Assembly (NCBI RefSeq): GCF_001652585.1
Contig: NZ_LWLG01000012.1
Coordinates: 30,001-62,000, forward strand
Origin: Thermosulfurimonas dismutans
GTDB lineage: Bacteria > Desulfobacterota > Thermodesulfobacteria > Thermodesulfobacteriales > Thermodesulfobacteriaceae
Direction of reading: 5' to 3'
Length of the DNA: 32,000 nt
Under the pieces are notes generated by a model that searched no databases, had not been told where the DNA came from, and was given only the letters and a program-made list of their open reading frames with translations. The position numbers and the translations under genes are program-made. This document shows positions 2,295 through 13,465 of this stretch, piece after piece. The first letter of the stretch is position 1. Every line of letters starts with the position of its first letter.

Positions 2295-2906
2295 TCAGGG
2301 GACGAATCGGGAAGCTATCCGATTCTGGGGGTCTAGAATCAGGATATCCCCAAAAATGGAGATCGCTACTTTCTTTTGACCAGAATGATACAGGGTTAAG
2401 GCCAACTGAGTAAGAAAAGCCACATCCGTAGGATAAAGGGTTAGCATCTTCCGGCAGACGGCTTCGGCCTGGCGATACTTTTTTTGTTCTCGCAGGGCTT
2501 GAGCGAGGCGAAGATTGCCATAGTAGTTATAAAAATCTATTTTCAAAACTCGAGTCATCAATTCTTCCACTTCTTTCCACCTTTTTTGAACCATATAGGT
2601 AAGGCCCAAGCCCAGAAGTGGTTCCACGGCCTGCGGGGCTACCTCTGCGGCCTTTTCGTAGTGTTTTCGGGCCTCCCGATAGCGCCCCTCTAGATAAAAT
2701 AACCAACCCAATCTTAAATTGACGGTATAGCCCCGAGGGAATTTCTCGTAAACTGGAAGAAGGGCCTCTCTAGCTTTGACATACTCTCCCCGCCTCTCAA
2801 ACTCATAGGAAAGATGGTAGGCCCGCTTGATAGCCTTATAATCCAAGGCCCAGGCCCAGCTAACTCCAAGGACCAGGATGAGAAGACTCAAAAGAATCTT
2901 TCGCAT
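2295..2906 (-). CDS. Secreted tetratricopeptide-repeat (TPR) protein, last gene of the sigma54 operon
   Basis: The ORF is 203 aa with signal peptide MRKILLSLLILVLGVSWAWA. Helical TPR-like units repeat (EYVKAREALLPVYEKFP, GRYREARKHYEKAAEVAP, KKYRQAEAVCRKMLTLYP). The start overlaps the upstream stop (TGATG at 2904-2908). Confidence 0.75.
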   Translation of the reverse strand: MRKILLSLLILVLGVSWAWALDYKAIKRAYHLSYEFERRGEYVKAREALLPVYEKFPRGYTVNLRLGWLFYLEGRYREARKHYEKAAEVAPQAVEPLLGLGLTYMVQKRWKEVEELMTRVLKIDFYNYYGNLRLAQALREQKKYRQAEAVCRKMLTLYPTDVAFLTQLALTLYHSGQKKVAISIFGDILILDPQNRIASRFVP

Positions 2907-3772
2907 CAGAAGTTAAAACCGATGAAACCAGTAATTATGGCCTGGTTGACACTTTTGTCAGATTCCACTTCTTTATAGGTATTCCAAGTTCCGGTAAGAC
3001 CTAGAACGTAATTATTGAATCGGTAAGTGACTTCCATGGAGGCCCCGCCGCGGTACTTTTCCGTAAGGTTGTAAACCACAAAACCGGAATTTTTGACCGC
3101 AAAGATCTGCTGTCCTACCCAACCGGACAGCTTTACGCTCAAAGGCCCTCGAGTACAGGTTCCAGAAAGCTCAAAGGAGTAATAGTTTTCCATGGAAAGC
3201 CCGATTTTTTCGTCCTCGTCAATATGGATGTAGTAGCCCCGGGCCTCGAGATAAAGACTCCTTTTTCCGAAATAGAAGAACTTTCCGGCGTGAGGAGAGA
3301 TCTGAAAGACGTCCAGATCCACCATTTCGTCATAGTTCGAATAGAAGAATTCCAGCCCGGCATTCCACTTCCAGGGCACGAAATAAGTGAGGTCCGTAAA
3401 AAGAATCAGCCCTTCATCGGTGAGGTCATCGTCGGTGGAGATATAGTGGCCTCCCAGACGCAAAGATAGATTGGGATAAAGGCTCCCGGTGTTGGTGTAG
3501 GCCAGGGTGTAATCCGTTTGATCAAGGTCCGAATAACCGGACTCATAGTTGATGTGGAGTTGGGAGACCGCGGCCTCAAGGCCATGATGTCTTCCGTCCC
3601 CAAGGCTTCCGTAGGCCGTAAAAGAATATCCATCATCCTTGACCTTGGAGTTGCCATAATTCAAATAGGCCCCGTAGAGGGCAAAATACTTCTTGAGTTC
3701 CGAAGTTCGACCGGTGCCCCAAGTCAGACCCAGAATCAAAACTACAATAAGCATCAACCATACTTTTCTCAT
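2906..3772 (-). CDS. Outer-membrane beta-barrel protein
   Basis: The ORF is 288 aa with an N-terminal signal peptide (MRKVWLMLIVVLILGLTWG). Alternating hydrophobic/aromatic beta-strand patterns run throughout, and the C-terminus is the aromatic ...GFIGFNF typical of OMPs. The start forms an ATGA overlap with the upstream stop (3769-3772). Confidence 0.7.
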   Translation of the reverse strand: MRKVWLMLIVVLILGLTWGTGRTSELKKYFALYGAYLNYGNSKVKDDGYSFTAYGSLGDGRHHGLEAAVSQLHINYESGYSDLDQTDYTLAYTNTGSLYPNLSLRLGGHYISTDDDLTDEGLILFTDLTYFVPWKWNAGLEFFYSNYDEMVDLDVFQISPHAGKFFYFGKRSLYLEARGYYIHIDEDEKIGLSMENYYSFELSGTCTRGPLSVKLSGWVGQQIFAVKNSGFVVYNLTEKYRGGASMEVTYRFNNYVLGLTGTWNTYKEVESDKSVNQAIITGFIGFNF

Positions 3773-5844
3773 CTCTTCCTCCTTAATTGATAAATTCGAT
3801 TTTTGATTTTTATTTCGATCTCTTCAAAGCCTACATCTTCGGCAAGGACCGTCTTAGTTTCTATCTTTTCATTATTCAAGTTGATTTTACCCGAAAAATC
3901 AAGTAGGCTTTGTGATTCATATCTGGCTTTTATTTGGAAATATCGTGGATAAAAAGAAATAAGAAAAAGATACCATTCTTTTTTAAAGCCCGAGAGTCCT
4001 ATTTCAAGTGGAAGACTATCCTCCCAACGAAGGCCTGGTTTCAAGGCCAGAGGCACTTTCGGGGCCGCAAGGAAGAGCCATTTCAAGGGTGAAGACTTAC
4101 GGCCCTCAAAACTCAGGAAGTAGAAGGCCTTTTCCTTTAAGGCAAAATAAAGCCTACTCTGGCCATCAGTAAGGTAAAAAGTCCCGTCCGGGGCCATTTC
4201 CACAGAAAGCGCAATTTCTCCGAAAAGACTGCCGTTTTCATATAGGCTGTAAGCCAACTTCTGGCCAAGGAGGAGATTGAGCCGCTTTTTGAGGGCCTTA
4301 TCCGGGGCCAAGGGCTCAACCGTTGAACCTTCCACGGGCAAGGAAAAATCCTTAAAAAGCCCCTCTTCCAGATACCCGGAGAAGACAAAAGGCAGGGTGG
4401 GCGAGCCGATCTCGGGCCCATGCTGGATATGGAAGTGAAGATGGGGTTCCGGTGCATAGCCCGAACTTCCGCAGAGCCCGAGCACCGTTCCTTTCACTAC
4501 CCAATCTCCCTTTTTGACCCGCAGGGTTCCGGGGCTGAAGTGTGCAAGCACAGCATAAAAACCGCGGAGATCGTAAATCACCACATGGTTCCCCCAGGGA
4601 TTTTCCCGATTAGCTGAGCCTGGAGGCTCATCTGGAAGCCCATCTACGGCCTCCACCACCCGGCCCGAGACCGGGGAAAAGACCGGCTTACGATAGGCGT
4701 AATAGTCCTCGGGGCGCATCCCCTCTCCGGCAAAGGTGCGGCCGTTTTCGTCCGCTACGACGAAGTCCAGGGCGTGACGCCAAGGCCCCTTGTGGGTGAA
4801 CTGGCCGTCTGGTCCCTGAGAGATGAGCCAACGTCCACTTACCGGAAGGTCCACCTCTGGAACCAGAGAAGGAAACCGGATCTCAAAGCTTAGATGATGA
4901 TCCAGGGTTTTCTCGGGCGTGCCCTTATAAAGGGCGGTAAGCTTCCTGAAGCCTGAAACTATGAGGGCATAGAGAAAAAGCAGGGTTACCAGGTTAAATG
5001 GAAGGGCAAAGGCCGGGAGACCGAACTTCTCCCAGAAGACCCGAGAGGCTTCGGTTATGGGCACCGCCACCACCGCCCCCAGGATCGCCAGGAGATAACT
5101 CCGGGGAGAGGGTATCAGGAAAACCCCTCCCAGGGCCATGCTGATGAGGACGTAGTTGAAGTGTATGGGATTGGAGAAAACCTGATACGAAGAACCGGTG
5201 AAGAGGTAAGCCATAAGGGTTCCTGAAAAATAGCCCAGTGCGGCCAAAAGCGCGAGAATCCTTGAGAACCGGAGAATGAGGGCGAAAACTATGAAACCGG
5301 GAAGGGGGTGAGGCATGAAAAAGATGGCCCCTAGAGAACGGAAAAAGCCCTCAAGCCACAGGGGGAGACCTCCCACACTGTAATGGAAGGTGGGTTTAAG
5401 ACTTGTGACCAAGAGATTGGAATAATGGTAGGAGGCAAGAGTAGCCACAAGACTTCCGATCACAAACGGAAGGCTCAGGACCGGGAGCCTCAAGTAATAA
5501 GATAGAAAGGAAGAAAGACCATAGGTAAGGAGAAAGGTAAAAATCCCTAGCAGGATTATAAAGAGAAGGGTTAAAGGATCAAGCCGAAAGTAATAGCCCA
5601 CGGAAAGGCCCACCAGAAGGGGATTATAGATGTAGTAGTCAAGTCTCAGGAAATCTTCTTTAAGTCCGATAAGCCTCGCAAAGCCGTAGGCCGAAAGTAC
5701 ACAAATAAGGCCCGAGAGTCCCAGATTGGGATCCATGAGGGTGGAAAGGGCCAAAAGGACCAGTCCGGCTCCAGGCTCGCTTATAAAAAGGATGCCGGAG
5801 TAACTGTTCAGGAGTGAATGGATGGCCGTCTTAAGAGCCTTCAT
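3769..5844 (-). CDS. Urea-transporter-like (UT family) membrane domain fused to an M23 metallopeptidase domain and an unassigned ~190-aa C-terminal domain
   Basis: I moved the start from 5973 to the ATG at 5842-5844, which forms an ATGA overlap with the decarboxylase stop. From there the product begins MKALKTAIHSLLNSYSGILFISEPGAGL, a UT-like N-terminus. About 10 hydrophobic segments follow, then the M23 zinc motifs WRHALDF (HxxxD) and EPHLHFHIQ (HxH). The tail has no motif I recognise. Confidence 0.75.
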   Translation of the reverse strand: MKALKTAIHSLLNSYSGILFISEPGAGLVLLALSTLMDPNLGLSGLICVLSAYGFARLIGLKEDFLRLDYYIYNPLLVGLSVGYYFRLDPLTLLFIILLGIFTFLLTYGLSSFLSYYLRLPVLSLPFVIGSLVATLASYHYSNLLVTSLKPTFHYSVGGLPLWLEGFFRSLGAIFFMPHPLPGFIVFALILRFSRILALLAALGYFSGTLMAYLFTGSSYQVFSNPIHFNYVLISMALGGVFLIPSPRSYLLAILGAVVAVPITEASRVFWEKFGLPAFALPFNLVTLLFLYALIVSGFRKLTALYKGTPEKTLDHHLSFEIRFPSLVPEVDLPVSGRWLISQGPDGQFTHKGPWRHALDFVVADENGRTFAGEGMRPEDYYAYRKPVFSPVSGRVVEAVDGLPDEPPGSANRENPWGNHVVIYDLRGFYAVLAHFSPGTLRVKKGDWVVKGTVLGLCGSSGYAPEPHLHFHIQHGPEIGSPTLPFVFSGYLEEGLFKDFSLPVEGSTVEPLAPDKALKKRLNLLLGQKLAYSLYENGSLFGEIALSVEMAPDGTFYLTDGQSRLYFALKEKAFYFLSFEGRKSSPLKWLFLAAPKVPLALKPGLRWEDSLPLEIGLSGFKKEWYLFLISFYPRYFQIKARYESQSLLDFSGKINLNNEKIETKTVLAEDVGFEEIEIKIKNRIYQLRRKR

Positions 5845-7181
5845 CGCAGATGTTCGGGAACTCTTTCCTTTCTTACGATGTCCTCCAGATTTTCGGCCTC
5901 GCGGATGACCTCTGCCCGGCCGTCCTCCGTGATGAGGATCACCCGTGGGCGGTAGGTAATAAATTGCATCCACTGAGTCACATTGTAAGCCCCCACCGGG
6001 GAGAGGATGAGATGGGTGTTTCTAGGAAGTGGGGGCAGGAGAGCACTCTCCTCCACCACATCGATGTTCATGCAGAGGGGACCGTAAAGGACGCAGGGTT
6101 CGGGTGGACCAGGAATCTCTCTCTCCATCTCCACCTTGAGGTGGTACCAGAAGGCCGTAAAAAGGAGATTAACCCCGGCATCAAGAATATAGGCCCGCCG
6201 GCCGTCAGGAAGCCTTTTGGTCGCCCTTACGGTAGTAAGGAGGAACCCGGCCTCATCCACCAGGGCCCGGCCGGTTTCCATAATGAGAAGCGGATAGTTT
6301 CCCGGAGGGAGTCCGGAAAGCATGGCCCGGCCGATGGCCTCAATGTACTCCGCTAGCGAAGGAACCGCCACCTCCGGCGGAAGATAGATACCTTTTAGGC
6401 GATTGCGGGATGGAAAGCCCCCTCCGAGGTCCAGATACTCTATCTGCCAGCCAAAACGGTTCTCTAACTCTCCGGCAAGCCTCACCAGTTTTTCGGCCGC
6501 CTGGCCATAGGCCCCTGGTTCAAGAATAAAGGTACCCTGGTGACAGTGAAGCCCAACCACCTCGAGGAGGCCTCCGGCAGCTATCCGCCGGGCCACTTGC
6601 ATGACCTCTCCGTTTTCAAGATTGAACCCGAATCGGTCCCAGCGGGGATAGATGCCGGTATCCATGTTAACCCGAAGGCCGATTTTAAGGCGCCGGCCCA
6701 TCTTGCGGGCCAGGTTTTCAAGATCAAGGACCTCGTCCAAGGAGTCGGCGTTAATTCGGGCCCCTTCAGAGACCGCGCGCTCTAGAATCTCTAGCGGTTT
6801 ATAAGGGCCGTTAAAGACTATTTTTTCCCCGGGAATTCCGAGTCTTCGGGCCTTCTCGTACTCAAAATCCGAGACTACCTCCGCCGTAGCCCCTTCCTGG
6901 TGAAAGATCCGGCAGATGGCGTCCAGATAGTTGGTCTTGTAGGACCAACTGAACTCCACCCGGGGATAGTGGCTCTCAAAGAGACGTTTGAGATACCGGA
7001 ACCTCTCTCGGAGCCTCTTTTCCGAGAAGACGAAAAGTGGAGAGCCGAATTTCTCAACCAAGGTCTTCACCGGAATTCCATCTATCTCCGAACGGATAAG
7101 GGTTCGCGCGGCGCTTTTCTTTTCCCGCATAAAACCTACATGCAGTTTAAGAATACTCGGTTTTTGATAGAGTTTTTTCAT
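5841..7181 (-). CDS. PLP-dependent decarboxylase, Orn/DAP/Arg decarboxylase family (fold type III); substrate unknown
   Basis: The ORF is 446 aa. Family-type motifs are present: FSWSYKTNY (PLP-lysine region, compare AxKAN), HCHQGT, YLDLGGGFP (GGG phosphate loop) and YGPLCMNIDV (active-site Cys region). ATGA overlaps occur at both ends (7178-7181 and 5841-5844). Confidence 0.8.
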   Translation of the reverse strand: MKKLYQKPSILKLHVGFMREKKSAARTLIRSEIDGIPVKTLVEKFGSPLFVFSEKRLRERFRYLKRLFESHYPRVEFSWSYKTNYLDAICRIFHQEGATAEVVSDFEYEKARRLGIPGEKIVFNGPYKPLEILERAVSEGARINADSLDEVLDLENLARKMGRRLKIGLRVNMDTGIYPRWDRFGFNLENGEVMQVARRIAAGGLLEVVGLHCHQGTFILEPGAYGQAAEKLVRLAGELENRFGWQIEYLDLGGGFPSRNRLKGIYLPPEVAVPSLAEYIEAIGRAMLSGLPPGNYPLLIMETGRALVDEAGFLLTTVRATKRLPDGRRAYILDAGVNLLFTAFWYHLKVEMEREIPGPPEPCVLYGPLCMNIDVVEESALLPPLPRNTHLILSPVGAYNVTQWMQFITYRPRVILITEDGRAEVIREAENLEDIVRKERVPEHLR

Positions 7182-8206
7182 CTCTCCCCCCTAGTAACCA
7201 TGTGCTGAAAGATTTGAATATCGGTTACAAAGTCGTCGGTAAAACGGATATAGAGTTTCCCGGCCTCGTAATGGGATTCCCTTTCCGGTTCCTCTCCGAG
7301 GGCGGCTTTAAGGAGTCTTTCCGGAAGATTAACCCCTACGCCCACCGCAAAATAGATCCAGGCCGGAAAGCGGGGATTGATCTCGATGAGATAGATCTCT
7401 TCGTCCTTCACAATAGTCTCCAGCTCAAAGGCTCCACGCCATCGAAAGGCCCTTACGAACTCCTCGGCGGCGGAAAGTAGCCTTTGGTGGGTTACGGTCA
7501 CCCCGGTCCAGATCTTTCCCAGGGAGGTAATCCAGAGTTTTTTGATGGTCACCAGCCCGAAATGTCCTCCCTCTCCGTCGCCGACCCCCACCACGTTCAT
7601 CTCCTCGCCCGCAACCACTTCCTGAAGAATCACCGGAAATCCCCATTCCGCCAAAATACTGTGGAAGTACTGCTCCGCTTCCGCGGGGGTGTGGGCCTTA
7701 AGGGCCTTATAAAAAAGGCCCTTAACCATGACCGGAAATTTCAGCTGTGAGAGGGCCCGGGAGAATTCTTCGTATGAAGTAACTACCAGGGTGGCAGGGA
7801 TCTTGATTCCGATGGTCTCGGCTACTGCCGGTAGCCGATCCTTGGCCCGCAGACGGAACTGTTCTTTGGAGGGAAGAAAGGTTTTTATTCCGTAGGCCGA
7901 AAGCCTTTCCTGGAGATCTATAAAAAGAGGCAGTTCGGCATCCAGGGCCGGGATGATGGCCTCAAGATCCTCTTTTTCCCGGATATAAAGGAGTCGATTG
8001 AGAAAAGGGGCTTCGCCCTCGGAAGGATAGGGCATAAGATAGGCCCGCTCAATCAGTTGTTCGAGATAGACTCCGGGTTCCATGGCATCATAGGCTAGGC
8101 CGACCACGGAGACCGAAAGACTTCCCTCCCGAAGACCTTTTATAATTCCGATTCCCGGGCCAGGATTGTCAACCGCGTTTATCCCGGAGACCGCAACCTT
8201 AATCAT
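7178..8206 (-). CDS. ATP-grasp family carboxylate-amine/peptide ligase
   Basis: The ORF is 342 aa. The layout resembles ATP-grasp enzymes: FPVMVKG (ATP-binding Lys region), VILQEVVAGEE and the Mg/ATP loop YLIEINPRFPAW. The start overlaps the PqqD-like stop by 8 nt (ATGATTAA). Confidence 0.75.
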   Translation of the reverse strand: MIKVAVSGINAVDNPGPGIGIIKGLREGSLSVSVVGLAYDAMEPGVYLEQLIERAYLMPYPSEGEAPFLNRLLYIREKEDLEAIIPALDAELPLFIDLQERLSAYGIKTFLPSKEQFRLRAKDRLPAVAETIGIKIPATLVVTSYEEFSRALSQLKFPVMVKGLFYKALKAHTPAEAEQYFHSILAEWGFPVILQEVVAGEEMNVVGVGDGEGGHFGLVTIKKLWITSLGKIWTGVTVTHQRLLSAAEEFVRAFRWRGAFELETIVKDEEIYLIEINPRFPAWIYFAVGVGVNLPERLLKAALGEEPERESHYEAGKLYIRFTDDFVTDIQIFQHMVTRGER

Positions 8207-8447
8207 GGCTTTCCCTCCAGAGCCCGAATCTCCTTAAGCCCTCCAGAAACTCCTCCACGTCCCGTTCCGCCTCTTCAGGGGAAACCTCGTATTCCTCAAG
8301 GATGGCCTCAACGATTGCCGTGGGTGACAATCCTTCCTTGAGCTTCTGCAAGATAAAAAGCCCAGTTTCGTTTACGGTATAACTGTTTCCGGTCTCGGGA
8401 TCAAACACAAAGCCTTCATCACTTATGGCCAGGCGAGAGATCTTCAT
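8199..8447 (-). CDS. PqqD-like small protein (RiPP-recognition-element / peptide-chaperone fold)
   Basis: The ORF is 82 aa. The N-terminus forms a short beta-sheet pattern (ISDEGFVFDPETGNSYTVNETGLFILQKL), followed by acidic helices (SPTAIVEAILEEYEVSPEEAERDVEEFLEGL), as is typical of the PqqD family. A strong RBS AAGGAGG sits 6 nt upstream of the ATG. Confidence 0.65.
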   Translation of the reverse strand: MKISRLAISDEGFVFDPETGNSYTVNETGLFILQKLKEGLSPTAIVEAILEEYEVSPEEAERDVEEFLEGLRRFGLWRESHD

Positions 8448-8458
8448 TTCGGGCCTCC

Positions 8459-9265
8459 TTATCTATTTTCCCTGAGCCATTTCATAATATCCCAGGCAGT
8501 AACACCATGGGAAAGGGCTAATTCCCTTAGAGGGCTATTCCAATCTGGGCGCACTCCGTGTTTCTTAAGAATCCCCTCACAGGTCTTACGGTCAAGCCCG
8601 AAGAGCTCACAGACCTCCTTTAGGGTTCGCTTACCAGGATGGGCGATGACCGGTGCTACAGAACCCTTAGCGGTGGAAGCGCTCTGTTTCTGACTGATGA
8701 TTATCAAATAAAGATCCGCTGGGGAGGTCTTGTTTAGACGGGCAAGCTCCTTGAGAGACATTTGGGAAGAGGGAATTTTAAACCCTCGAGCTTCTAAGAC
8801 CTGTATAGTTTTTTGCAGGGAAAGACCCTCTCTTTTGACAACGACTTCGAGAGAAAGAAGTTCAGCGTGAGGCACTGGGGGAGGAACTGCCGGCTTGTGC
8901 CAAGAGGCTTTAAATCTTTCCTGGAGGCTCATTAGCAGGCTTGCCGGCGGAAGATCCTTTATCGCTAGGACCGTAAGAGCCACCGTAACCAGAGTCAGGG
9001 AAACCAAAACCTTGCTCGGGGCCCTTGTCGAGCCCAGATAGCGTTTAAAGGGCTTCCAGTTCAGATAGAAATGCCAGGCCGCAAGAAAGATCACGAGAAC
9101 CCCGAAGAGGATATGGATAGCCTCCCACTGATCCTTTCCCAGTCCCAGAAGGCGCCAGTCCGTCCAGTAGGCCACGCGGCCAGGCGGCATGATATAAAGC
9201 ACGAGTCCTGTTAGGACCGTGAGCCCCAGAGCATAGAAGAGAAAGAGGCTAACAAAGCTTCTCAT
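8459..9265 (-). CDS. DUF4405-like membrane protein (His-bearing helices) with a duplicated soluble C-terminal module
   Basis: The ORF track starts at 9298. I prefer the ATG at 9263-9265 (MRSFVSLFLFY...), which has GGGGGA 6 nt upstream and removes the overlap with the upstream gene. The signature is WEAIHILFGVLVIFLAAWHFYLNWKPF. The C-terminal half contains two similar ~45-aa units (LSLQKTIQVLEARGFKIPSSQMSLKELARLNKTSPADL and RTLKEVCELFGLDRKTCEGILKKHGVRPDWNSPLRELALSHGVTAWDI). Confidence 0.6.
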   Translation of the reverse strand: MRSFVSLFLFYALGLTVLTGLVLYIMPPGRVAYWTDWRLLGLGKDQWEAIHILFGVLVIFLAAWHFYLNWKPFKRYLGSTRAPSKVLVSLTLVTVALTVLAIKDLPPASLLMSLQERFKASWHKPAVPPPVPHAELLSLEVVVKREGLSLQKTIQVLEARGFKIPSSQMSLKELARLNKTSPADLYLIIISQKQSASTAKGSVAPVIAHPGKRTLKEVCELFGLDRKTCEGILKKHGVRPDWNSPLRELALSHGVTAWDIMKWLRENR

Positions 9266-9276
9266 CCCAGATCCCC

Positions 9277-9981
9277 CTATTTGTTTTCCTGAGGGCATTT
9301 TCTAAGGCTCAAAGTCCGGCCGTCTTTGAGGAGTACGATCCGGCAGGCCATGTATTCGTCTATGTTGCGAGCAGCCCAGAATGGAGGCTGGTAGGCCAAG
9401 ATCTCCACCTTCTCGCCAGGTTTAAGCTCCGGATAATCGTTTAACCAAAGGGGAGAAATCCTGAAGGTAGCCACCCGGCCCTCACTATTTTTTACTTCTA
9501 TTACCAACCATTTAATCTGAGGCCGACCTATACCGGGGCTGCTCTTCCGGGCCACGATTTCCCCGGAATAGACCAGCGGTTTCAGACTAGTTCTCCAACA
9601 GGGCTTGCCTGGCCCCTCTCGCAGCACGAGGACCGCCCCGGTATCGAGATTTTTTACCTCCGCCGCCACCAAAACCGGCTGACCGGCAAAGGCCGTACGT
9701 GGGGGAATCCAGCCTCTAACCCTGATCCGGTCTCCCGTAGTAAAGGGAGGCTTGAGCTTCCACCATTCGGGATAAAGCCTCACCTTTATTTCCTTTTTCT
9801 CGGTGGCTACCAACGCGGTCACGAAGCCGAACCTGGCCTTGGGAGAGGCCTTTTCCACCCGGATCTCCCTGACCGTGCCCTCCACCTCCTGCATAGGAAC
9901 CCCGGGACCCTTTCCAAAGGCGGCTCCGAACCATATTAGAAGAAAAAGCAAACTAAATATTTCAATTTTTCTCGTGTTCAT
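9277..9981 (-). CDS. Secreted protein with two OB-fold-like (BOF-like) repeats, first gene after the sigma54 promoter
   Basis: I moved the start from the TTG at 10011 to the ATG at 9979-9981, which has AAGGAGG 7 nt upstream. The product begins MNTRKIEIFSLLFLLIWFGAAFG, a signal peptide. Two internally similar halves are visible (GTVREIRVEK...VRLYPEWW...GDRIRVRGWIPP and GEIVARK...FRISPLWL...GEKVEILAYQPPFW). Confidence 0.55.
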   Translation of the reverse strand: MNTRKIEIFSLLFLLIWFGAAFGKGPGVPMQEVEGTVREIRVEKASPKARFGFVTALVATEKKEIKVRLYPEWWKLKPPFTTGDRIRVRGWIPPRTAFAGQPVLVAAEVKNLDTGAVLVLREGPGKPCWRTSLKPLVYSGEIVARKSSPGIGRPQIKWLVIEVKNSEGRVATFRISPLWLNDYPELKPGEKVEILAYQPPFWAARNIDEYMACRIVLLKDGRTLSLRKCPQENK

Positions 9982-10017
9982 ACCTACGACCTCCTTTTTC
10001 CTTTTTAGCAAAAATTA

Positions 10018-10034
10018 AGCAAAGGGTATGCCAA
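10018..10034 (-). promoter_or_regulatory. Sigma54 (RpoN) -24/-12 promoter
   Basis: The minus strand reads TTGGCATACCCTTTGCT, that is TGGCAT-N5-TTGCT with exact GG-N10-GC spacing. The consensus is TGGCAC-N5-TTGCW. The GC element lies 37 nt upstream of the ATG at 9981. The promoter is immediately downstream of a sigma54-dependent activator gene pair. Confidence 0.7.
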
Positions 10035-10072: not shown

Positions 10073-10123
10073 CCTCGGAAACTTTTCCGAAAAAGGGATC
10101 ATTTTTCGGAAAAGTTTCCGAGG
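10073..10123. repeat. Perfect 22-bp inverted repeat with a 7-nt spacer spanning the kinase stop codon
   Basis: Arm 10073-10094 is CCTCGGAAACTTTTCCGAAAAA and arm 10102-10123 is TTTTTCGGAAAAGTTTCCGAGG. I checked all 22 positions base by base and they are complementary. The spacer GGGATCA contains the TGA of the kinase. A second hairpin (CCGAGGTC-TCT-GACCTCGG, 10060-10078) shares CCTCGG with the left arm. Confidence 0.85.
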
Positions 10124-11244
10124 GGAAGTCTAATGGTAAAAACGGTCCAACCGGAACATAATTCGGCCTTGACGCTTCCACCGTGGGCCTCTACGATTCT
10201 CTTGACATTGAAGAGGCCGAGACCGAAGCCTCCGGGTTTTTGGCTCTTGTAGGGCCTGAAAAGTTCGGTGGTCTCGGGAAGAAGGCCTGCAGAATCGGCC
10301 ACCTCTATACGATAAAATTCGCCCTCAACGTCCCCGTAAAGCCTCATTCTGCGGGGAGGAGGTGCCTGAGCCAGGGCCTCCAGGGCATTTCTAATAAGGT
10401 TTCGAAGGACCACGCGCATCTTTTCAGGATCAACGGAAAGTTTTGCGGGCGCAAGTCTGACCTCGGTTTCGACTCCAAGATCTTCTACTCTTTCGGAAAA
10501 TTCTCCGAGGATCTCTTTTATCAAATCGTTTATTCTGGTTTCAACAGGCCTTAGAGCCAGAGGCTTCCTTAAATCGGAGACCTCTACCAGATAAAGGGTG
10601 AGTCGCCTAATTTCCTCCTCAAGGATTTTTATTTCTTCGGACGAAGTCTTCTTTTTCAGGCGAAAGACCGCAAAATTGAGGTTATTCAGGGCGTTTTTGA
10701 CCTCGTGAAGCATGGATGCGATGGCCAGGGATACGCTTTTTAGCCGTTCGGCTTCGGCCCTTTCCTGAGCAAGGATCAGTCTGCTTTCGTAATAACTCCT
10801 GAGCAACCAAAGGGTTAACCCTAACCCCATGAAATTGAGGAGTAACCACAAGCTGAGTTCAATGTAGAAATGGCGTTTGATCTCGTAAAAGACCTCCCCC
10901 GAGAAGTAGAGTTTAAATACGAAGGGGTTGAGTTCCAGGGTGTAAATCAGATTTTTGGGAGGAATGTCCGTCCCCGGAACGATGATGGTTCTTCCGGAAA
11001 GGATAAGGGCTGCCCCTTTGAGAAGGTCGGAATCCTCCATATATTCTGCAAGGGTTTCCACAGGATCGCCTCCAGAGATCACAGTGGCCTTGAGAACCGA
11101 ATAAATACGCCGTTTTTCTTCCTCCAGCGTCAAATAAAAAAATTTCTCCCATTCCTTCTTCAAACGGTAAAAATCGTAAAGAAAACCCAGACCCAAGGCC
11201 AAAAGTACGGTAAAAAAGAGAAAGAGATAACGTCTAGATGCCAT
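10099..11244 (-). CDS. Sensor histidine kinase (two TM segments, ~100-aa extracytoplasmic loop, HisKA + HATPase_c)
   Basis: The ORF is 381 aa. TM1 is YLFLFFTVLLALGLGFLY and TM2 is LSLWLLLNFMGLGLTLWLL. The H-box is SMLHEVKNALNNL, the N-box is VLRNLIRNALEA and the G2 box is GGFGLGL. The start overlaps the regulator stop by 11 nt. Confidence 0.85.
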   Translation of the reverse strand: MASRRYLFLFFTVLLALGLGFLYDFYRLKKEWEKFFYLTLEEEKRRIYSVLKATVISGGDPVETLAEYMEDSDLLKGAALILSGRTIIVPGTDIPPKNLIYTLELNPFVFKLYFSGEVFYEIKRHFYIELSLWLLLNFMGLGLTLWLLRSYYESRLILAQERAEAERLKSVSLAIASMLHEVKNALNNLNFAVFRLKKKTSSEEIKILEEEIRRLTLYLVEVSDLRKPLALRPVETRINDLIKEILGEFSERVEDLGVETEVRLAPAKLSVDPEKMRVVLRNLIRNALEALAQAPPPRRMRLYGDVEGEFYRIEVADSAGLLPETTELFRPYKSQKPGGFGLGLFNVKRIVEAHGGSVKAELCSGWTVFTIRLPLGNFSEK

Positions 11245-12580
11245 ATTTTTTGCGTTTATAACGTAGGGACTTCTCGTCTATCCCCAGAAGTTCGGCAGCC
11301 CTGGTCTGCACATAGCCAGTCTGCTCTAGGGCTTCCTTGAGAAGGAGCTTCTCCACGTCGGCAAGGACTTTGGGGAGGGCTTTTCCTAGCGGAAGATGCA
11401 GATCGATCTTCGACTCGCCCTTAGTCTCAAGTCCAAGAACTTCGGGAGTAATTTCCCTGCCGCTTACCAACACCGCCCGGTGGATAAGATTCTCGAGCTC
11501 CCTGACATTTCCCGGAAAAGAATAACGGAGTAGCTCTTCCATAGCTTCCGGGGTGATCTTTACATCTTTTTGGTATTTCTGGTTAAACTTCCGCAGGAAA
11601 TAAGCAACAAGTTCAGCAATATCTTCCTTTCGTTCGCGAAGGGGTGGAATCTTTAGGACTAGGACATTCAGGCGAAAATAGAGATCCTCTCGAAATTTTT
11701 GTCGAGAGACCGCGGCCTTAAGATCTTCATTGGTAGCCGCTATGATTCTGGCGTCGCTTTTCAGAATCTTATTGCTGCCTAGACGACGAAATTCGCCTTC
11801 CTGGAGGAACCGTAGGAGTTTGCTCTGAAGAACAAGGGGCATCTCTCCGATTTCGTCAAGGAAAAGCGTACCGCCTTGGGCTTCTTCGATCAGACCCGAC
11901 CGAGAAGTTTCAGCCCCGGTAAAGGCCCCACGCTCATAACCAAAAAGTTCGGCTTCGAAGAGTTGCTCAGGCAAGGCCGCACAATTCACGGCCACAAACC
12001 GACCCTTACGCCCGCTTTTTTCGTGGATATAACGGGCTAAAAGCTCCTTTCCCACTCCGGACTCTCCTAGAATAAGAATGGGGGCCTCGGGCCGGGCAAA
12101 GATCTCGGCCTGCCGCAGAAGATCCTTCATTACCTGTGAACGATAAACCAAAGGCCCCGGCTCTCGGGGTCTTCTTAGACTAACGAGTTCCCCACACCTT
12201 CTCACCAAATTAAGGAGGACCTCGGGCTCATAAGGTTTTACCAGATAGTGAAAGGCCCCGGCCTTGATCGCAGAAATTGCGTCTTCTATCTCACCGAAGG
12301 CTGTAATGATAAGGACTTCGGTTTCTGGACTCTTCTCTTTTATACGCTCAAGGAGTTCCAAGCCGCTCATCCCCGGAAGCCGGACATCCAAAATGGCCAC
12401 ATCTATTTCTTCTTGGCTCAACACGGGCAGGGCCTTTTCGGCACTGGGCACACTCCAAACGCGATATCCTTCTTCCTCTAAGGTCTTCCGCAGAAGTTCG
12501 CGATGGATCTTCTCGTCTTCTACTATCAGGATACGCAGGCTATCGCCTTCGGGACCGGAGTCGACCTCTTTTCTTTTCAT
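11234..12580 (-). CDS. Sigma54-dependent response regulator (NtrC family: receiver + AAA+ + Fis-type HTH)
   Basis: The ORF is 448 aa. The receiver domain shows ILIVEDE...DVAILDVRLPGMSG. The AAA+ domain has Walker A GESGVGKE, the sigma54-contact loop ERGAFTGA, Walker B LFLDEIG and RVIAATN-like IIAATNEDL. The C-terminal HTH is TRAAELLGIDEKSLRYKRKKYGI. Confidence 0.92.
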   Translation of the reverse strand: MKRKEVDSGPEGDSLRILIVEDEKIHRELLRKTLEEEGYRVWSVPSAEKALPVLSQEEIDVAILDVRLPGMSGLELLERIKEKSPETEVLIITAFGEIEDAISAIKAGAFHYLVKPYEPEVLLNLVRRCGELVSLRRPREPGPLVYRSQVMKDLLRQAEIFARPEAPILILGESGVGKELLARYIHEKSGRKGRFVAVNCAALPEQLFEAELFGYERGAFTGAETSRSGLIEEAQGGTLFLDEIGEMPLVLQSKLLRFLQEGEFRRLGSNKILKSDARIIAATNEDLKAAVSRQKFREDLYFRLNVLVLKIPPLRERKEDIAELVAYFLRKFNQKYQKDVKITPEAMEELLRYSFPGNVRELENLIHRAVLVSGREITPEVLGLETKGESKIDLHLPLGKALPKVLADVEKLLLKEALEQTGYVQTRAAELLGIDEKSLRYKRKKYGI

Positions 12581-12598: not shown

Positions 12599-13465
12599 TT
12601 AAGACGTCCGAAGGCCCCTTTCCAAATAAGCTAGGAACTTGTAAATCAGACGGGCAGCCAGGTATTCCGTACGGGGATCTCCGGGAATAGGCAAAAGCTC
12701 TACCACATCAAAACCAATGACCCGGAAGGAGGCTGCCAACTTCAAAATTTCGAGGACCTCATACCAGGTAAGCCCTCCAGGCTCGGGAGTGCCCACTCCG
12801 GGGGCCTCCGCGGGATCAAAACCATCAAGATCTAAAGTCACGTAAACCGGCCCCTCCCCCAAAAGGTCTTTCAAGTTTGCAAGACCGGCTTCAAAGTCCC
12901 GTTTGAGGTCCCGGGCCCACAGGACAGAAAGTTTTTCCCTCTGAATGAGTTCGTATTCCTCCCGGGAGGCCGTCCGTATTCCCACGGCCACCACCTCAAG
13001 GCCCATCTCATAAGCCCGCCGCATAACGCAAGCATGGCTGAAGGGAGTTTCCTGGTAAACATCCCTCAAATCTGGATGGGCATCTATCTGAAGGATTTTG
13101 AATGACGAAAAGCGCTCCTTTAAAGCCCTCAGAGCCGCAAGGGTAACGGTGTGTTCACCCCCGAGGAGAACCGGAAACTTTTGTTCGTCCAGGGCCTTAC
13201 AGACCAGGCTCTCTATAGTAAGAATGGCTTTCTCGGGGTCTACCGGAAGTTCGGGCTCCGGAAAGGTATAGAAACCCAAGTTACGGTGAGGTTCGCTTCC
13301 GGTTTCCTCGTCAAAAAACTCGAGATAAGGACTAACCTCTAGGATACGTCTCGGGCCCTCTCTCGTCCCTGGGCGCCAAGAAGTAGTGGCGTCGTAGGGA
13401 GCAGGAATGAGGGCTACCCGAGCCTTCTCTCGGACCTCGGGTAGCCCCAGAAAGGTCCGTCTCAT
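12599..13465 (-). CDS. speB: Agmatinase / ureohydrolase (arginase family)
   Basis: The ORF is 288 aa. The arginase-family Mn-binding motifs are present: LGGEHTVT, QIDAHPDLR and VTLDLDGFDP. The start directly abuts the speH stop (TAGATG). Confidence 0.88.
   Translation of the reverse strand: MRRTFLGLPEVREKARVALIPAPYDATTSWRPGTREGPRRILEVSPYLEFFDEETGSEPHRNLGFYTFPEPELPVDPEKAILTIESLVCKALDEQKFPVLLGGEHTVTLAALRALKERFSSFKILQIDAHPDLRDVYQETPFSHACVMRRAYEMGLEVVAVGIRTASREEYELIQREKLSVLWARDLKRDFEAGLANLKDLLGEGPVYVTLDLDGFDPAEAPGVGTPEPGGLTWYEVLEILKLAASFRVIGFDVVELLPIPGDPRTEYLAARLIYKFLAYLERGLRTS

What the first reader, a model, noticed from the sequence alone, without database searches (positions are those of the whole stretch)
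5841..8447. PqqD-like protein + ATP-grasp ligase + fold-type III decarboxylase triad with no visible precursor peptide or carrier protein
The three genes are overlap-coupled (8-nt and 4-nt overlaps).

Established precedents:
- PqqD-fold proteins act as peptide-binding recognition elements in RiPP pathways.
- ATP-grasp ligases paired with DAP-decarboxylase-like enzymes act on carrier-tethered amino acids. One example is BtrJ/BtrK acting on the BtrI carrier protein in butirosin side-chain synthesis. LysX loading LysW is another ATP-grasp/carrier example.

Here there is no ACP, no LysW-like protein and no small ORF next to the triad. Every flanking nucleotide is assigned to larger genes. Either the PqqD-like protein is itself the scaffold, or the substrate peptide is encoded elsewhere or is the terminus of one of the neighbouring proteins. 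That arrangement would be unusual for PqqD-family proteins.
Basis: partly seen in the sequence, partly recalled or inferred. Interest (0 to 1): 0.75.

Follow-up and report, generated by a model that had tools for sequence, protein, structure and literature searches.

The report
Decarboxylase carries its own leader peptide
The "missing" peptide of this PqqD / ATP-grasp / decarboxylase gene trio is probably the decarboxylase's own disordered N-terminal tail, which carries a lasso-leader-type docking motif and a fixed lysine. The trio sits in a widespread, uncharacterised six-gene cassette that ends in a membrane channel fused to an amide-cleaving domain.

Summary
Three overlap-coupled genes encode a PqqD-type RiPP recognition element (RRE), an ATP-grasp ligase and a FigC-like fold-type III decarboxylase. 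No precursor or carrier gene was found, here or in about 160 related loci.

The unit is larger than reported. It continues into a urea-transporter-like channel fused to a cytoplasmic M23 peptidase, a putative outer-membrane barrel and a TPR protein. It occurs in 232 species genomes across many phyla.

New result: every cassette decarboxylase has an N-terminal extension that LysA, FigC and BtrK lack. It is as conserved as the catalytic core, but AlphaFold2 predicts it disordered. It carries [Y/W/F]xxPx[I/L/V], the motif that lasso-type RREs bind. A lysine lies 15 residues downstream in about 116 of 127 unique tails. The PqqD keeps the Asn/Asp/Phe leader-binding residues.

A second cassette type has a tandem ATP-grasp and replaces M23 with a sirtuin (lysine deacylase) on the same channel.

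Best reading (inferred, about 0.4): the tail is a built-in leader plus acceptor lysine. The ATP-grasp loads it, the decarboxylase works on the tethered amino acid, and M23 or sirtuin releases the product. The product is unknown.

The parts
8199..8447 (-). PqqD-family RRE (82 aa), lasso-B1-like.
   Evidence: - PF05402: E 4e-19.
- Best PDB hits are lasso B1 RREs: TfuB1 6jx3_B (6e-8) and TbiB1 5v1u (2e-6).
- N26, D63 and F67 align with LppB N33, D70 and F74, the residues that hold the YxxP leader.
- These residues are conserved in 70 orthologues.
7178..8206 (-). ATP-grasp carboxylate-amine ligase (342 aa).
   Evidence: - PF15632 and PF02655.
- Only sub-threshold 'CPS-like' NCBIfam hits, plus weak PylC and MfnD hits.
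- 55-83% identical across phyla; the E275-x-N277 Mg motif is invariant.
5841..7181 (-). Fold-type III PLP decarboxylase (446 aa), FigC-like.
   Evidence: - 7kh2: E 3e-54 by sequence; E 3e-37 and TM 0.85 by fold.
- PLP lysine K82 is present.
- C370-M371 matches FigC C354-M355. T342 and Y346 match FigC T327 and Y331.
- LysA model score is below cut-off.
7113..7181 (-). Decarboxylase N-terminal tail (residues 1-23): conserved, predicted disordered, leader-like.
   Evidence: - AlphaFold2 pLDDT is below 50 with no secondary structure for residues 1-23; the rest of the protein is confident.
- The extension is absent from LysA, FslC and BtrK alignments.
- Conservation of positions 5-16 is 0.78, against 0.77 for the catalytic core.
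7152..7169 (-). Y5-Q-K-P8-S-I10: a [Y/W]xxPx[L/V/I/F/A] RRE-binding motif.
   Evidence: - Y 62/62, P 62/62 and I 61/62 in the first set of loci.
- 123 of 127 unique tails across both cassette types carry the motif; 4 have the Y.P..L variant; 3 have W in place of Y.
- The motif is defined as the discrete-RRE ligand in PMC13381572 and PMC10368454.
7116..7121 (-). K21-K22: candidate acceptor lysine. It lies at +16/+17 from the Tyr in this clade and at +15 in most others.
   Evidence: Lysine position in 127 unique tails:
- +15 in 113 by script, plus 3 that the script mis-scored.
- +16 in 9.
- +17 in 1.
- absent in 1 (L124).
The lysine is usually followed by F, H or Y.
3769..5844 (-). Urea-transporter-like channel (about residues 1-300) fused to a cytoplasmic M23 metallopeptidase domain (about 330-480) and an unassigned beta-rich C-terminal domain.
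   Evidence: - PF03253 (E 4.5e-66) and PF01551 (E 4e-12).
- AlphaFold2 mean pLDDT 88.8.
- Foldseek: dvUT at TM 0.83, and M23 domains Csd1, EnpA and LytM.
- H351, D360, H435, H468 and H470 are invariant.
- The positive-inside rule puts the C-terminal domains in the cytoplasm.
- The real start is ATG at 5844: P0121 is 691 aa and 100% identical.
2906..3772 (-). 288-aa secreted protein, putative outer-membrane beta-barrel.
   Evidence: - Signal peptide and a C-terminal ...GFNF.
- No Pfam family.
- Conserved in the cassette.
- In 8 Verrucomicrobia-type loci the ORF carrying it is 484-748 aa; the one checked (L064) has TPR repeats at its N-terminus.
2295..2906 (-). Secreted TPR protein (203 aa).
   Evidence: - Multiple TPR Pfam hits.
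- Conserved as the last cassette gene.
8459..10011 (-). Two lineage-specific upstream genes in the same operon: a DUF4405 membrane protein (8459-9298) and a secreted 244-aa protein with a weak, sub-threshold OB-fold Pfam hit (9277-10011).
   Evidence: - Pfam results.
- Present only in Thermodesulfobacteria and Desulfurobacteriaceae loci, 12 in all.
10018..10033 (-). Sigma-54-type promoter-like site, TGGCATACCCTTTGCT.
   Evidence: - One mismatch to TGGCAC-N5-TTGCW.
- It lies in the gap between the histidine kinase gene and the operon.
- It is only a consensus match: the window's count of such matches is within chance expectation.
10099..12580 (-). Histidine kinase (10099-11244) and NtrC-type sigma-54 activator (11234-12580), directly upstream.
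   Evidence: - Read from the translations.
- The same pair precedes the cassette in Thermovibrio and several other lineages.

Best explanation
The triad is the cytoplasmic core of a conserved six-gene cassette. The substrate peptide is built into the decarboxylase.

Proposed steps:
1. The decarboxylase's disordered N-terminal tail acts as a leader. Its [Y/W]xxPx[I/L/V] motif docks in the groove of the PqqD-type RRE, as lasso and LPP leaders dock on B1 proteins.
2. Docking presents a conserved lysine, about 15 residues downstream, to the ATP-grasp ligase. The ligase acylates the lysine's epsilon-amine with an amino acid that keeps a free alpha-amino and alpha-carboxyl centre.
3. The FigC/BtrK-type decarboxylase removes the alpha-carboxylate of the tethered residue. 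Ligation and decarboxylation may repeat, as with BtrJ/BtrK.
4. The amide-cleaving domain fused to the cytoplasmic face of the urea-transporter-like channel frees the lysine and releases the product. That domain is M23 here and a sirtuin in the sister cassette.
5. The product leaves through the channel and the barrel/TPR pair.

Shown here:
- The domain identities.
- The cassette and its two types.
- The conserved, predicted-disordered tail with its motif and lysine.
- The conserved RRE contact residues.

Inferred:
- The binding of tail to RRE.
- The covalent loading of the lysine.
- The identity of the loaded amino acid and of the product.
- The direction of transport.
For: 1. **No separate peptide or carrier gene.** None is found in about 160 loci, yet PqqD is present in 79 of 80 metagenome loci that have enough upstream sequence.
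2. **The motif.** 123 of 127 unique decarboxylase tails carry [YWF]xxPx[LVIMFA], including W variants. This is the motif that discrete lasso/LPP RREs bind. In about 1.1 Mb of six-frame translation the strict form occurs 73 times, of which 71 are decarboxylase N-termini.
3. **The RRE.** The window PqqD is most similar to lasso B1 RREs. It keeps Asn (proline kink), Asp (tyrosine hydroxyl) and Phe (proline sandwich).
4. **The tail.** It is as conserved as the catalytic core but predicted disordered. It is absent from LysA, FslC and BtrK.
5. **The lysine.** It lies at +15 in about 116 of 127 tails although the nine residues in between vary. The spacing resembles the distance from motif to core in lasso precursors, where the motif spans -17 to -12.
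6. **Domain swap.** In 30 loci with a tandem ATP-grasp, the channel is fused to a sirtuin instead of M23. Sirtuin motifs were scored with narrow regular expressions: GAGxS in 25, QNxD in 24, the Zn cysteines in 22 and HG in 19 of 30. Sirtuins deacylate N-epsilon-acyl-lysine (established knowledge).
7. **Decarboxylase subfamily.** Its members act on conjugated or carrier-tethered amino acids. The enzyme shares FigC's Cys-Met and Thr/Tyr specificity features, and it lacks the Arg and acidic residues that DAPDC uses to bind free diaminopimelate.
8. **Location.** The M23 domain is cytoplasmic by the positive-inside rule, so it can meet cytoplasmic substrates.
Against:
- Low pLDDT in a monomer model could instead mean the tail packs on the dimer partner.
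- In the window's own clade the +15 residue is Glu, with Lys at +16/+17. One tail (L124) has no lysine.
- With only a ligase, a decarboxylase and an amidase, the net chemistry would be ATP-costly formation of a simple amine, unless the cycle is iterative or the adduct is the end product.
- A urea-type pore is narrow.
- A sirtuin would release the acyl group as O-acyl-ADP-ribose, not as a free acid.
- The first Zn motif of the M23 domain has non-canonical spacing: H351...D360, not HxxxD.
- Asn and Asp are conserved in many PqqD-family RREs, so they do not single out this ligand.
Confidence: 0.4

Rival explanations
1. Docking only. The RRE binds the decarboxylase tail non-covalently to hold ligase and decarboxylase together. 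The two enzymes then act on a free small-molecule conjugate. This is FigA/FigC-like: X-COOH plus Orn, Lys or DAP gives a conjugate, which is then decarboxylated. The conserved lysine is only a contact residue.
For: - The motif, RRE and disorder evidence is the same as for the best explanation.
- FigC is the closest relative, and FigA/FigC work on free N-citrylornithine.
- A small neutral product would suit a urea-type pore.
Against: - It gives no role to the channel-fused M23 domain or to its replacement by a lysine deacylase.
- It does not explain a lysine held at fixed spacing while its neighbours vary.
- FigC's citrate-binding R387 and H357 are Q403 and I373 here.
Confidence: 0.25
2. Regulatory modification. 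The ATP-grasp acylates the tail lysine to switch the decarboxylase on or off, and M23 or sirtuin erases the mark. The channel, barrel and TPR protein import a small nitrogen compound such as urea or an amide. The system would be part of nitrogen scavenging.
For: - NtrC-type sigma-54 regulators flank the cassette in several lineages, and a sigma-54-like site lies upstream here.
- One type-2 locus abuts amtB-glnK.
- Sirtuins are classical erasers (established knowledge).
- The UT domain is a close structural match to urea channels.
Against: - The regulators and amtB are not universal neighbours.
- A dedicated writer, adaptor and eraser for a single enzyme would be elaborate.
- There is no urease, allophanate hydrolase or other assimilation gene in the cassette.
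Confidence: 0.12
3. Sacrificial precursor, as in borosins and burpitides. The tail is a RiPP core fused to one of its own tailoring enzymes. It is modified, cut off by the M23 domain and exported as a peptide.
For: - The tail has a leader-plus-core layout.
- An invariant G16 and a near-invariant G22 could serve as M23 (glycyl) cleavage sites.
- TPR-plus-barrel pairs often export polymers or peptides (established knowledge).
Against: - A sirtuin cannot cut peptide bonds, yet it replaces M23 in type 2.
- A urea-type pore is too narrow for a peptide.
- A PLP decarboxylase cannot act on an internal residue.
- It would cost one 446-aa enzyme per product.
Confidence: 0.08
4. Classical RiPP or scaffold-peptide pathway. 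The precursor is encoded elsewhere in the genome, and the tail motif is incidental.
For: - PqqD-type RREs normally bind separate peptides.
- Whole genomes could not be searched here.
Against: - No precursor lies next to the cassette in about 160 loci from more than a dozen phyla.
- The only conserved RRE-type motif in any terminal segment of a cassette protein is on the decarboxylase.
Confidence: 0.08
5. Ordinary metabolism. The decarboxylase is LysA or an arginine/ornithine decarboxylase, and the neighbouring genes are unrelated.
For: - Public records name it 'diaminopimelate decarboxylase' or 'alanine racemase'.
- SpeD-like and agmatinase-like genes lie about 5 kb away.
Against: - The LysA and SpeA models score below their cut-offs.
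- The active-site residues are FigC-type.
- Gene order is strictly conserved, with overlaps.
- A solved Aquifex aeolicus DAP decarboxylase (AQ1208, 2p3e) is only 25% identical.
Confidence: 0.02

Closest known systems
Lasso-peptide and LPP leader recognition by discrete B1/PqqD-type RREs (TfuB1/FusB1, TbiB1, LppB)
   Same: - A small stand-alone PqqD-fold protein.
- The ligand motif [Y/W]xxPx[L/V/I].
- Conserved Asn, Asp and Phe contact residues.
- A modification site about 15-17 residues after the aromatic residue.
- An ATP-dependent amide-forming enzyme and a peptidase as partners.
   Different: - The motif sits on the N-terminus of a 446-aa enzyme, not on a small precursor.
- There is no B2 protease and no Asn-synthetase-like cyclase.
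- The partner enzymes are an ATP-grasp, a PLP decarboxylase and an M23 or sirtuin domain.
BtrI/BtrJ/BtrK (butirosin side chain)
   Same: - An ATP-grasp ligase is paired with a DAPDC-derived decarboxylase acting on a tethered amino acid.
- Ligation and decarboxylation alternate.
- A later hydrolytic release step follows.
   Different: - There is no acyl carrier protein and no thioester.
- The proposed tether is an amide on a lysine of the decarboxylase itself.
- An RRE is involved.
LysW/LysX/LysK amino-group carrier system
   Same: - An ATP-grasp loads an amino acid onto a protein carrier through an amide.
- Enzymes act on the tethered substrate.
- A metallopeptidase releases the product.
   Different: - The LysW carrier offers a C-terminal Glu carboxylate and protects the substrate's alpha-amine.
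- Here the proposed carrier group is a lysine amine, and the alpha-centre must stay free for PLP chemistry.
- There is no LysW-like protein.
FigA/FigC (FslA/FslC) rhizoferrin pathway, with SbnH and AcsE
   Same: - FigC is the closest decarboxylase by sequence and fold.
- Both have Met after the catalytic Cys, and Thr/Tyr on the specificity helix.
- The logic is the same: conjugate first, then decarboxylate.
   Different: - The ligase is an ATP-grasp, not an NIS synthetase.
- The citrate-binding residues are replaced by neutral ones.
- FigC has no N-terminal leader-like tail and no PqqD partner.
Borosins (OphMA) and burpitides: RiPP cores fused to their own modifying enzyme
   Same: The substrate segment is part of the enzyme polypeptide.
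   Different: - Those systems have the core at the C-terminus or inside the protein, use no RRE, and are single-turnover with peptide release.
- Here an RRE and a probable reusable lysine are proposed.
Peptidase-containing ABC transporters (PCATs)
   Same: A cytoplasmic cleaving domain is fused to the membrane export device of a biosynthetic cassette.
   Different: - The membrane part is a urea-transporter-type channel, not an ABC pump.
- The cleaving domain is M23 or a sirtuin, not C39.

Membership tests
PqqD family / RiPP recognition element (PF05402) | Profile match above the curated threshold. | tested here: met
   E 4.2e-19, 69.1 bits against a 23.4 cut-off, covering profile positions 3-66 of 67.
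PqqD family / RiPP recognition element (PF05402) | Leader-binding residues of YxxP-recognising RREs: Asn on beta3, and Asp and Phe on alpha3. | tested here: met
   N26, D63 and F67 align with LppB N33, D70 and F74. In 70 orthologues the counts are N 49 (plus 7 S), D 60 and F 57.
PqqD family / RiPP recognition element (PF05402) | Winged-helix fold that binds a peptide as an added beta-strand. | not tested
Lasso peptide biosynthetic cluster | B2 transglutaminase-like protease, Asn-synthetase-like cyclase, and a small precursor with Gly/Ala/Ser/Cys1 and Asp/Glu7-9. | tested here: not met
   None of these is among the six cassette families. The lasso PqqD models score below cut-off: 54 against 70, and 31 against 80.
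PQQ biosynthesis (PqqD proper) | TIGR03859 equivalog score and pqqA/B/C/E neighbours. | tested here: not met
   17.8 bits against a 46 cut-off. There are no pqq neighbours.
HPr-rel-A system (TIGR04353 PqqD-related protein) | The PqqD model scores above cut-off, and an HprK-related kinase and a nucleotidyltransferase are adjacent. | tested here: not met
   The model scores 42.5 against a 35 cut-off, but neither partner gene is present. An automatic name based on this model would mislead.
Diaminopimelate decarboxylase LysA (TIGR01048) | Equivalog score, and residues that bind the distal carboxylate and amine of DAP. | tested here: not met
   209 bits against a 297.9 cut-off. Met371 follows the catalytic Cys where DAPDC and ODC have an acidic residue, and the Arg of the specificity helix is absent.
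N-citrylornithine decarboxylase FslC/FigC (NF041039) | Model score, citrate-binding R387/H357, and an NIS synthetase partner. | tested here: not met
   202 bits against a 500 cut-off. R387 and H357 correspond to Q403 and I373. There is no NIS synthetase. FigC is still the nearest solved relative.
BtrI/J/K-type carrier pathway | A separate acyl carrier protein with a phosphopantetheine thioester. | tested here: not met
   No ACP gene was found in the window or in related loci.
LysW/LysX amino-group carrier system | A small carrier protein with a conserved acidic C-terminal tail. | tested here: not met
   There is no LysW-like gene, and the PqqD C-terminus is variable in sequence and length.
Graspetides (ATP-grasp RiPPs) | A microviridin-type ATP-grasp maturase and a small precursor with Thr/Ser/Lys-Asp/Glu core repeats. 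| tested here: not met
   No graspetide-maturase model appears among the NCBIfam hits, and there is no precursor ORF.
Urea transporter (UT / SLC14, PF03253) | Profile match and the 10-helix inverted-repeat fold. | tested here: met
   223 bits against a 25 cut-off. Foldseek matches dvUT 3me1 at TM 0.83 and 27% identity.
Urea transporter (UT / SLC14, PF03253) | Urea as the transported species. | not testable with these tools
   The Yut equivalog model scores 115.5 against a 274.6 cut-off, so specificity is open.
Peptidase M23 (PF01551) | Profile match and the Zn/catalytic HxxxD ... H ... HxH residues. | tested here: inconclusive
   46.5 bits against a 28.7 cut-off, with fold matches to Csd1, EnpA and LytM. 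H435 and H468-x-H470 are invariant. The first motif is H351-x8-D360, not HxxxD.

The most novel reading that the evidence does not exclude
This would be an unrecognised class of biosynthetic machine in which an enzyme carries its own RiPP-style leader and an acceptor lysine.

- An RRE presents the decarboxylase's tail to an ATP-grasp.
- The ATP-grasp builds an amino-acid-derived adduct on the lysine, possibly as an iterated ligate-and-decarboxylate polyamide.
- A sirtuin or an M23 domain, welded to a urea-transporter-type channel, then strips the adduct off for export.

The system would be present in hundreds of species from Aquificota to Verrucomicrobiota.
Probability: 0.35. Interest if true: 0.9.

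Novelty: new variant of a known kind. Interest (0 to 1): 0.8.

Why it matters
- RREs are used as class-independent beacons for peptide natural-product clusters. An RRE whose ligand is the tail of a full-length enzyme would change how 'orphan' RREs are read.
- It would add a third kind of protein-tethered amino-acid chemistry beside ACP thioesters (BtrI) and LysW carboxylate carriers.
- A cytoplasmic M23 domain and a sirtuin, alternately fused to a urea-transporter-type channel, are unusual uses of three well-known families.
- The cassette is strongly conserved: the ATP-grasp is 55-83% identical across phyla. It is widespread in thermophiles, Verrucomicrobiota, Planctomycetota and others.
- Its genes are annotated only with generic or misleading names: 'urea transporter', 'alanine racemase', 'carbamoyl-phosphate synthase large subunit'.
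- The hypothesis can be tested directly with a 23-residue peptide and intact-mass spectrometry.

Tried and rejected
**Searches for a separate peptide or carrier**
- Small ORFs between ATP-grasp and decarboxylase are only lineage-specific inserts. They are Cys-rich lipoprotein-like ORFs in Desulfurobacteriaceae, a cytochrome-c-like ORF, and a repeat element in Verrucomicrobia.
- Small ORFs upstream of PqqD: none is conserved.
- PqqD as a LysW-type carrier: rejected, because the C-terminus is variable.

**A claim I retracted**
- I first read L064 as a PqqD-ATP-grasp fusion. That was a script artefact. A stop codon separates the genes, and 0 of 72 loci are fused.

**Tests that could not run or were uninformative**
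- Mutual information between PqqD and tail columns gave top pairs dominated by variable positions and phylogeny.

**Negative scans**
- Rfam riboswitch search of the window and 8 loci found only a tRNA.
- A sigma-54 promoter directly upstream of PqqD was found in only 3 of 71 loci at 2 mismatches or fewer.
- PADLOC defence models gave no hits.
- Pfam search for the barrel protein gave nothing significant.
- Literature searches for the gene combination found nothing describing it.
- A PDB search with the tail consensus gave only a chance hit to Prp22.

Full report
**1. The observation**

On the minus strand the window encodes three genes:
- an 82-aa protein at 8199-8447;
- a 342-aa protein at 7178-8206;
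- a 446-aa protein at 5841-7181.

They overlap by 8 nt and 4 nt, as stated. Pfam assigns them to PqqD (PF05402, E 4e-19), ATP-grasp (PF15632/PF02655) and the two domains of fold-type III PLP decarboxylases (PF02784, PF00278). No ACP, LysW-like gene or credible small ORF adjoins them. The window comes from Thermosulfurimonas dismutans or a near-identical strain: two of its proteins are 100% identical to records of that species.

**2. The unit is a six-gene cassette**

The decarboxylase stop overlaps (ATGA, 5841-5844) the start of a 691-aa protein. That protein is a urea-transporter-type channel (PF03253, E 4.5e-66) fused to an M23 peptidase domain (PF01551) and an unassigned C-terminal domain.

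Two more genes follow, with 4-nt and 1-nt overlaps:
- a 288-aa secreted protein ending in ...GFNF, a putative outer-membrane barrel with no Pfam family;
- a secreted TPR protein.

The order PqqD, ATP-grasp, decarboxylase, UT-M23, barrel, TPR recurs widely.
- It is found in Thermovibrio, Hippea and Riflebacteria.
- It recurs in the 80 best of 232 species-level genome hits. These span Thermodesulfobacteriota, Aquificota, Verrucomicrobiota, Planctomycetota, Calditrichota, Kapaibacteria, WOR-3 and others.
- Clustering all neighbouring ORFs shows no further universal gene.
- The ATP-grasp is 55-83% identical across these phyla.
- In some Aquificaceae the cassette is split.

In eight Verrucomicrobia-type loci the ORF carrying the barrel is 484-748 aa. 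The one I checked (L064) has TPR repeats at its N-terminus, a PgaA/BcsC/Slam-like architecture.

In this window the cassette is preceded by two lineage-specific genes: a DUF4405 membrane protein and a secreted 244-aa protein. Upstream of those lie a sigma-54-like site (10018-10033), a histidine kinase and an NtrC-type activator.

**3. No separate peptide**

- Inserts between ATP-grasp and decarboxylase are lineage-specific and unrelated to each other.
- No conserved small ORF lies upstream of PqqD.
- The PqqD C-terminus varies in sequence and length, so it is not a LysW-type carrier.
- An apparent PqqD-ATP-grasp fusion in L064 was my own script error. A stop codon is present, and 0 of 72 loci are fused.

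**4. What kind of decarboxylase**

The LysA, FslC, SpeA and exosortase-associated models all score below their curated cut-offs. The best solved relative is FigC/FslC N-citrylornithine decarboxylase (7kh2), with E 3e-54 by sequence and E 3e-37 / TM 0.85 by fold. It ranks ahead of all DAP decarboxylases.

Li et al. place FigC, SbnH, AcsE, MccE and BtrK in one clade derived from DAPDC (PMC7857480). Every member decarboxylates an amino acid joined through its side chain to citrate, a peptide-nucleotide or a carrier protein.

The window enzyme shows these features:
- It keeps the PLP lysine and the catalytic Cys.
- It shares FigC's Met after that Cys (C370-M371), where ODC, ADC and DAPDC have an acidic residue.
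- It shares FigC's Thr and Tyr on the specificity helix (T342, Y346).
- FigC's citrate ligands R387 and H357 are Q403 and I373 here.

It is therefore a decarboxylase for a conjugated amino acid, and the distal group is not citrate.

**5. The tail**

All cassette decarboxylases begin about 20-30 residues before the point where the LysA, FslC and BtrK alignments start.

In 62 of 62 first-set sequences the extension reads Y-[EQ]-K-P-x-I-x-K-[LIV]-x-x-G. Y and P are invariant and I is present in 61 of 62. Positions 5-16 are as conserved as the catalytic core (0.78 against 0.77). Even so, AlphaFold2 with a 28-sequence alignment gives pLDDT below 50 and no secondary structure for residues 1-23, while the rest of the model is confident. 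A conserved, disordered terminal segment is what a docking motif looks like.

The motif is the [Y/W]xxPx[L/V/I/F/A] element of lasso and LPP leader peptides.
- Discrete PqqD-type RREs bind it.
- Y and P are essential for that binding.
- It spans positions -17 to -12 of lasso leaders (PMC13381572, PMC10368454, PMC6784204).

The window PqqD's best PDB hits are exactly those RREs: TfuB1/FusB1 (6e-8) and TbiB1 (2e-6). LppB and PbaB1 hit weakly. Mapping through the LppB alignment gives these correspondences:
- Asn that fixes the proline kink: LppB N33 = N26.
- Asp that hydrogen-bonds the tyrosine: D70 = D63.
- Phe that sandwiches the proline: F74 = F67.
- Pocket residues: Y60 = Y53, M78 = L71, L83 = L76.

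All are conserved in 70 orthologues.

Two controls support specificity.
- The only other conserved [YW]xxPx[LVIFAM] strings in cassette proteins lie far from either terminus, at positions 188 of 342 and 266 of 446.
- In six-frame translations of all first-set loci plus the window, the strict motif occurs 73 times. Of these, 71 are decarboxylase N-termini.

**6. A second cassette type**

An exhaustive profile search with the ATP-grasp found tandem, roughly 710-aa double ATP-grasp relatives. Their loci have the order PqqD, double ATP-grasp, decarboxylase, then a UT channel fused to a SIR2 sirtuin instead of M23. TPR and barrel genes were seen next to the cassette in the two loci examined in detail, L086 and L087, which share an identical cassette.

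A metagenome scan gave 80 more loci.
- All 30 with SIR2 have the tandem ligase.
- Where the contig extends far enough, the single-ATP-grasp loci have M23.
- Sirtuin motifs are mostly intact, as scored with narrow regular expressions: GAGxS in 25, QNxD in 24, the Zn cysteines in 22 and HG in 19 of 30. The sirtuin lies in a long ORF that also holds the UT match in 26 of 30.
- An HMM finds a PqqD gene upstream in 79 of 80 loci with enough sequence.

The decarboxylase tails of these distant cassettes differ almost everywhere except in two features.
- **The motif.** 123 of 127 unique tails have [YWF]xxPx[LVIMFA]. Four have Y.P..L. Three use W, the known alternative.
- **A lysine 15 residues after the aromatic residue.** The script scored 113. 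Three more were mis-scored because a later chance motif was picked. Nine have the lysine at +16, one at +17, and one tail has none. The lysine is usually followed by F, H or Y.
- The window's clade is one of the +16/+17 cases (E20, K21, K22).

**7. Reading**

Sirtuins are N-epsilon-acyl-lysine deacylases, and M23 enzymes hydrolyse peptide and cross-link amides; both statements rest on established knowledge. Their exchange on the same channel, together with a fixed lysine on an RRE-docked tail and a carboxylate-amine ligase, points to an N-epsilon-acyl-lysine intermediate on the decarboxylase tail.

The UT C-terminus, and therefore M23 or SIR2, is cytoplasmic.
- Positive-inside counts give 5.5 K+R in the post-channel linker, against 0.6 in the central loop.
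- The known UT topology agrees (established knowledge).

The model that uses every gene has five steps:
1. The RRE docks the tail.
2. The ATP-grasp loads an amino acid on the lysine.
3. The FigC/BtrK-type decarboxylase acts on the tethered residue, possibly in repeated cycles as with BtrJ/BtrK.
4. M23 or sirtuin unloads it at the channel.
5. The channel and the barrel/TPR pair pass the product.

Only the sequence features are shown. Binding, loading, the identity of the amino acid and product, and the transport direction are all inferred.

Weak points:
- the energetic logic, if the product is a simple amine;
- the narrow urea-type pore;
- the O-acyl-ADP-ribose product of sirtuins;
- the non-canonical H-x8-D spacing in the M23 domain.

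**8. Rivals**

- **Docking only.** The two enzymes act on a free FigA/FigC-like conjugate. This leaves the lysine and the M23/sirtuin domains unexplained.
- **Regulatory acylation.** The channel would serve uptake of a nitrogen compound. It fits the sigma-54/NtrC neighbours and one amtB-glnK neighbour, but these are not universal.
- **Sacrificial, borosin-like core.** This is hard to reconcile with a sirtuin.
- **Trans-encoded precursor.** Not excluded, because whole genomes could not be scanned.
- **Plain LysA.** Effectively refuted.

**9. Novelty**

Full-text searches for the gene combination returned nothing that describes it. No Rfam element and no defence model matched. Public names are generic or misleading. 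One NCBIfam model (HPr-rel-A PqqD, 42.5 bits against a 35 cut-off) would mislabel the RRE.

The parts belong to known families. The arrangement appears undescribed in three respects:
- the leader and acceptor lysine sit on the decarboxylase itself;
- an ATP-grasp is the RRE-dependent enzyme;
- M23 or a sirtuin is fused to a UT-type channel.

Noticed in passing
L084 7724-13217; L086 7739-13103; L089-L124 (many): A sister 'type 2' cassette has the order PqqD, tandem double ATP-grasp (about 710 aa), tail-bearing decarboxylase, then a urea-transporter-like channel fused to a SIR2 sirtuin in place of M23. All 30 SIR2 loci have the tandem ligase.
   Followed up: yes
L086 14884-16752: One type-2 cassette lies next to amtB (ammonium transporter) and glnK (P-II). 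This hints at a nitrogen link. It is a single locus.
   Followed up: no
window 10018-10033 (-): A sigma-54-type promoter-like site (TGGCATACCCTTTGCT) lies between the histidine kinase gene and the operon, with an NtrC-type activator just upstream. Similar sites directly upstream of PqqD were found in only 3 of 71 other loci.
   Followed up: partly
window 12599-13924 (-): An arginase/agmatinase-family gene and a pyruvoyl S-adenosylmethionine decarboxylase (PF02675) sit about 4-5 kb upstream of the cassette. These polyamine genes are not conserved next to the cassette elsewhere.
   Followed up: partly
L001 9043-9177; L021 10621-10746; L013 1239-1547: Desulfurobacteriaceae have lineage-specific small secreted ORFs inserted between the ATP-grasp and decarboxylase genes. 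Two are Cys-rich lipoprotein-like peptides (for example MAIKRLL...GSCCPCTKRCFNPCKPCKPCKCLRR). One is a cytochrome-c-like ORF with a CSSCH motif. None has a YxxP motif.
   Followed up: partly
L056, L061, L066, L072, L077 (ATP-grasp/decarboxylase spacer): Verrucomicrobial loci share a repeated element in this spacer. It translates to MSHRFAQMKHR... It looks like a dispersed repeat rather than a gene.
   Followed up: no
L064 14467-15921; also L046, L056, L066, L069, L072, L077, L079: The ORF carrying the putative outer-membrane barrel is 484-748 aa in these eight loci. In L064, the one checked against Pfam, its N-terminus holds TPR repeats, a PgaA/BcsC/Slam-like layout. This suggests that the TPR and barrel proteins of the window work as one device.
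   Followed up: partly
window 5845-5973 (-): The longest ORF for the UT-M23 gene starts at a GTG 129 nt upstream. That would add a 43-aa Gly/Arg/His-rich extension overlapping the decarboxylase gene. The public record and all homologues start at the ATG at 5844.
   Followed up: yes
window 8199-8447 (-): The NCBIfam equivalog TIGR04353 (HPr-rel-A system PqqD) scores above its cut-off (42.5 against 35), although no HPr-rel-A partner genes are present. This is a likely source of misannotation.
   Followed up: yes
L111 5326-5946; similar ~1-kb gaps in L106, L107, L112: L111 encodes an extra 206-aa secreted protein between the PqqD and ATP-grasp genes. L106, L107 and L112 have a gap of similar size at the same place, which I did not examine. 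Function unknown.
   Followed up: no
window 741-2267 (+): A 508-aa ORF downstream of the cassette, on the opposite strand, was not analysed. From the translation alone (HxDxDH-like motif THADADH) its C-terminal half may be a metallo-beta-lactamase-type fold. No profile search was run.
   Followed up: no
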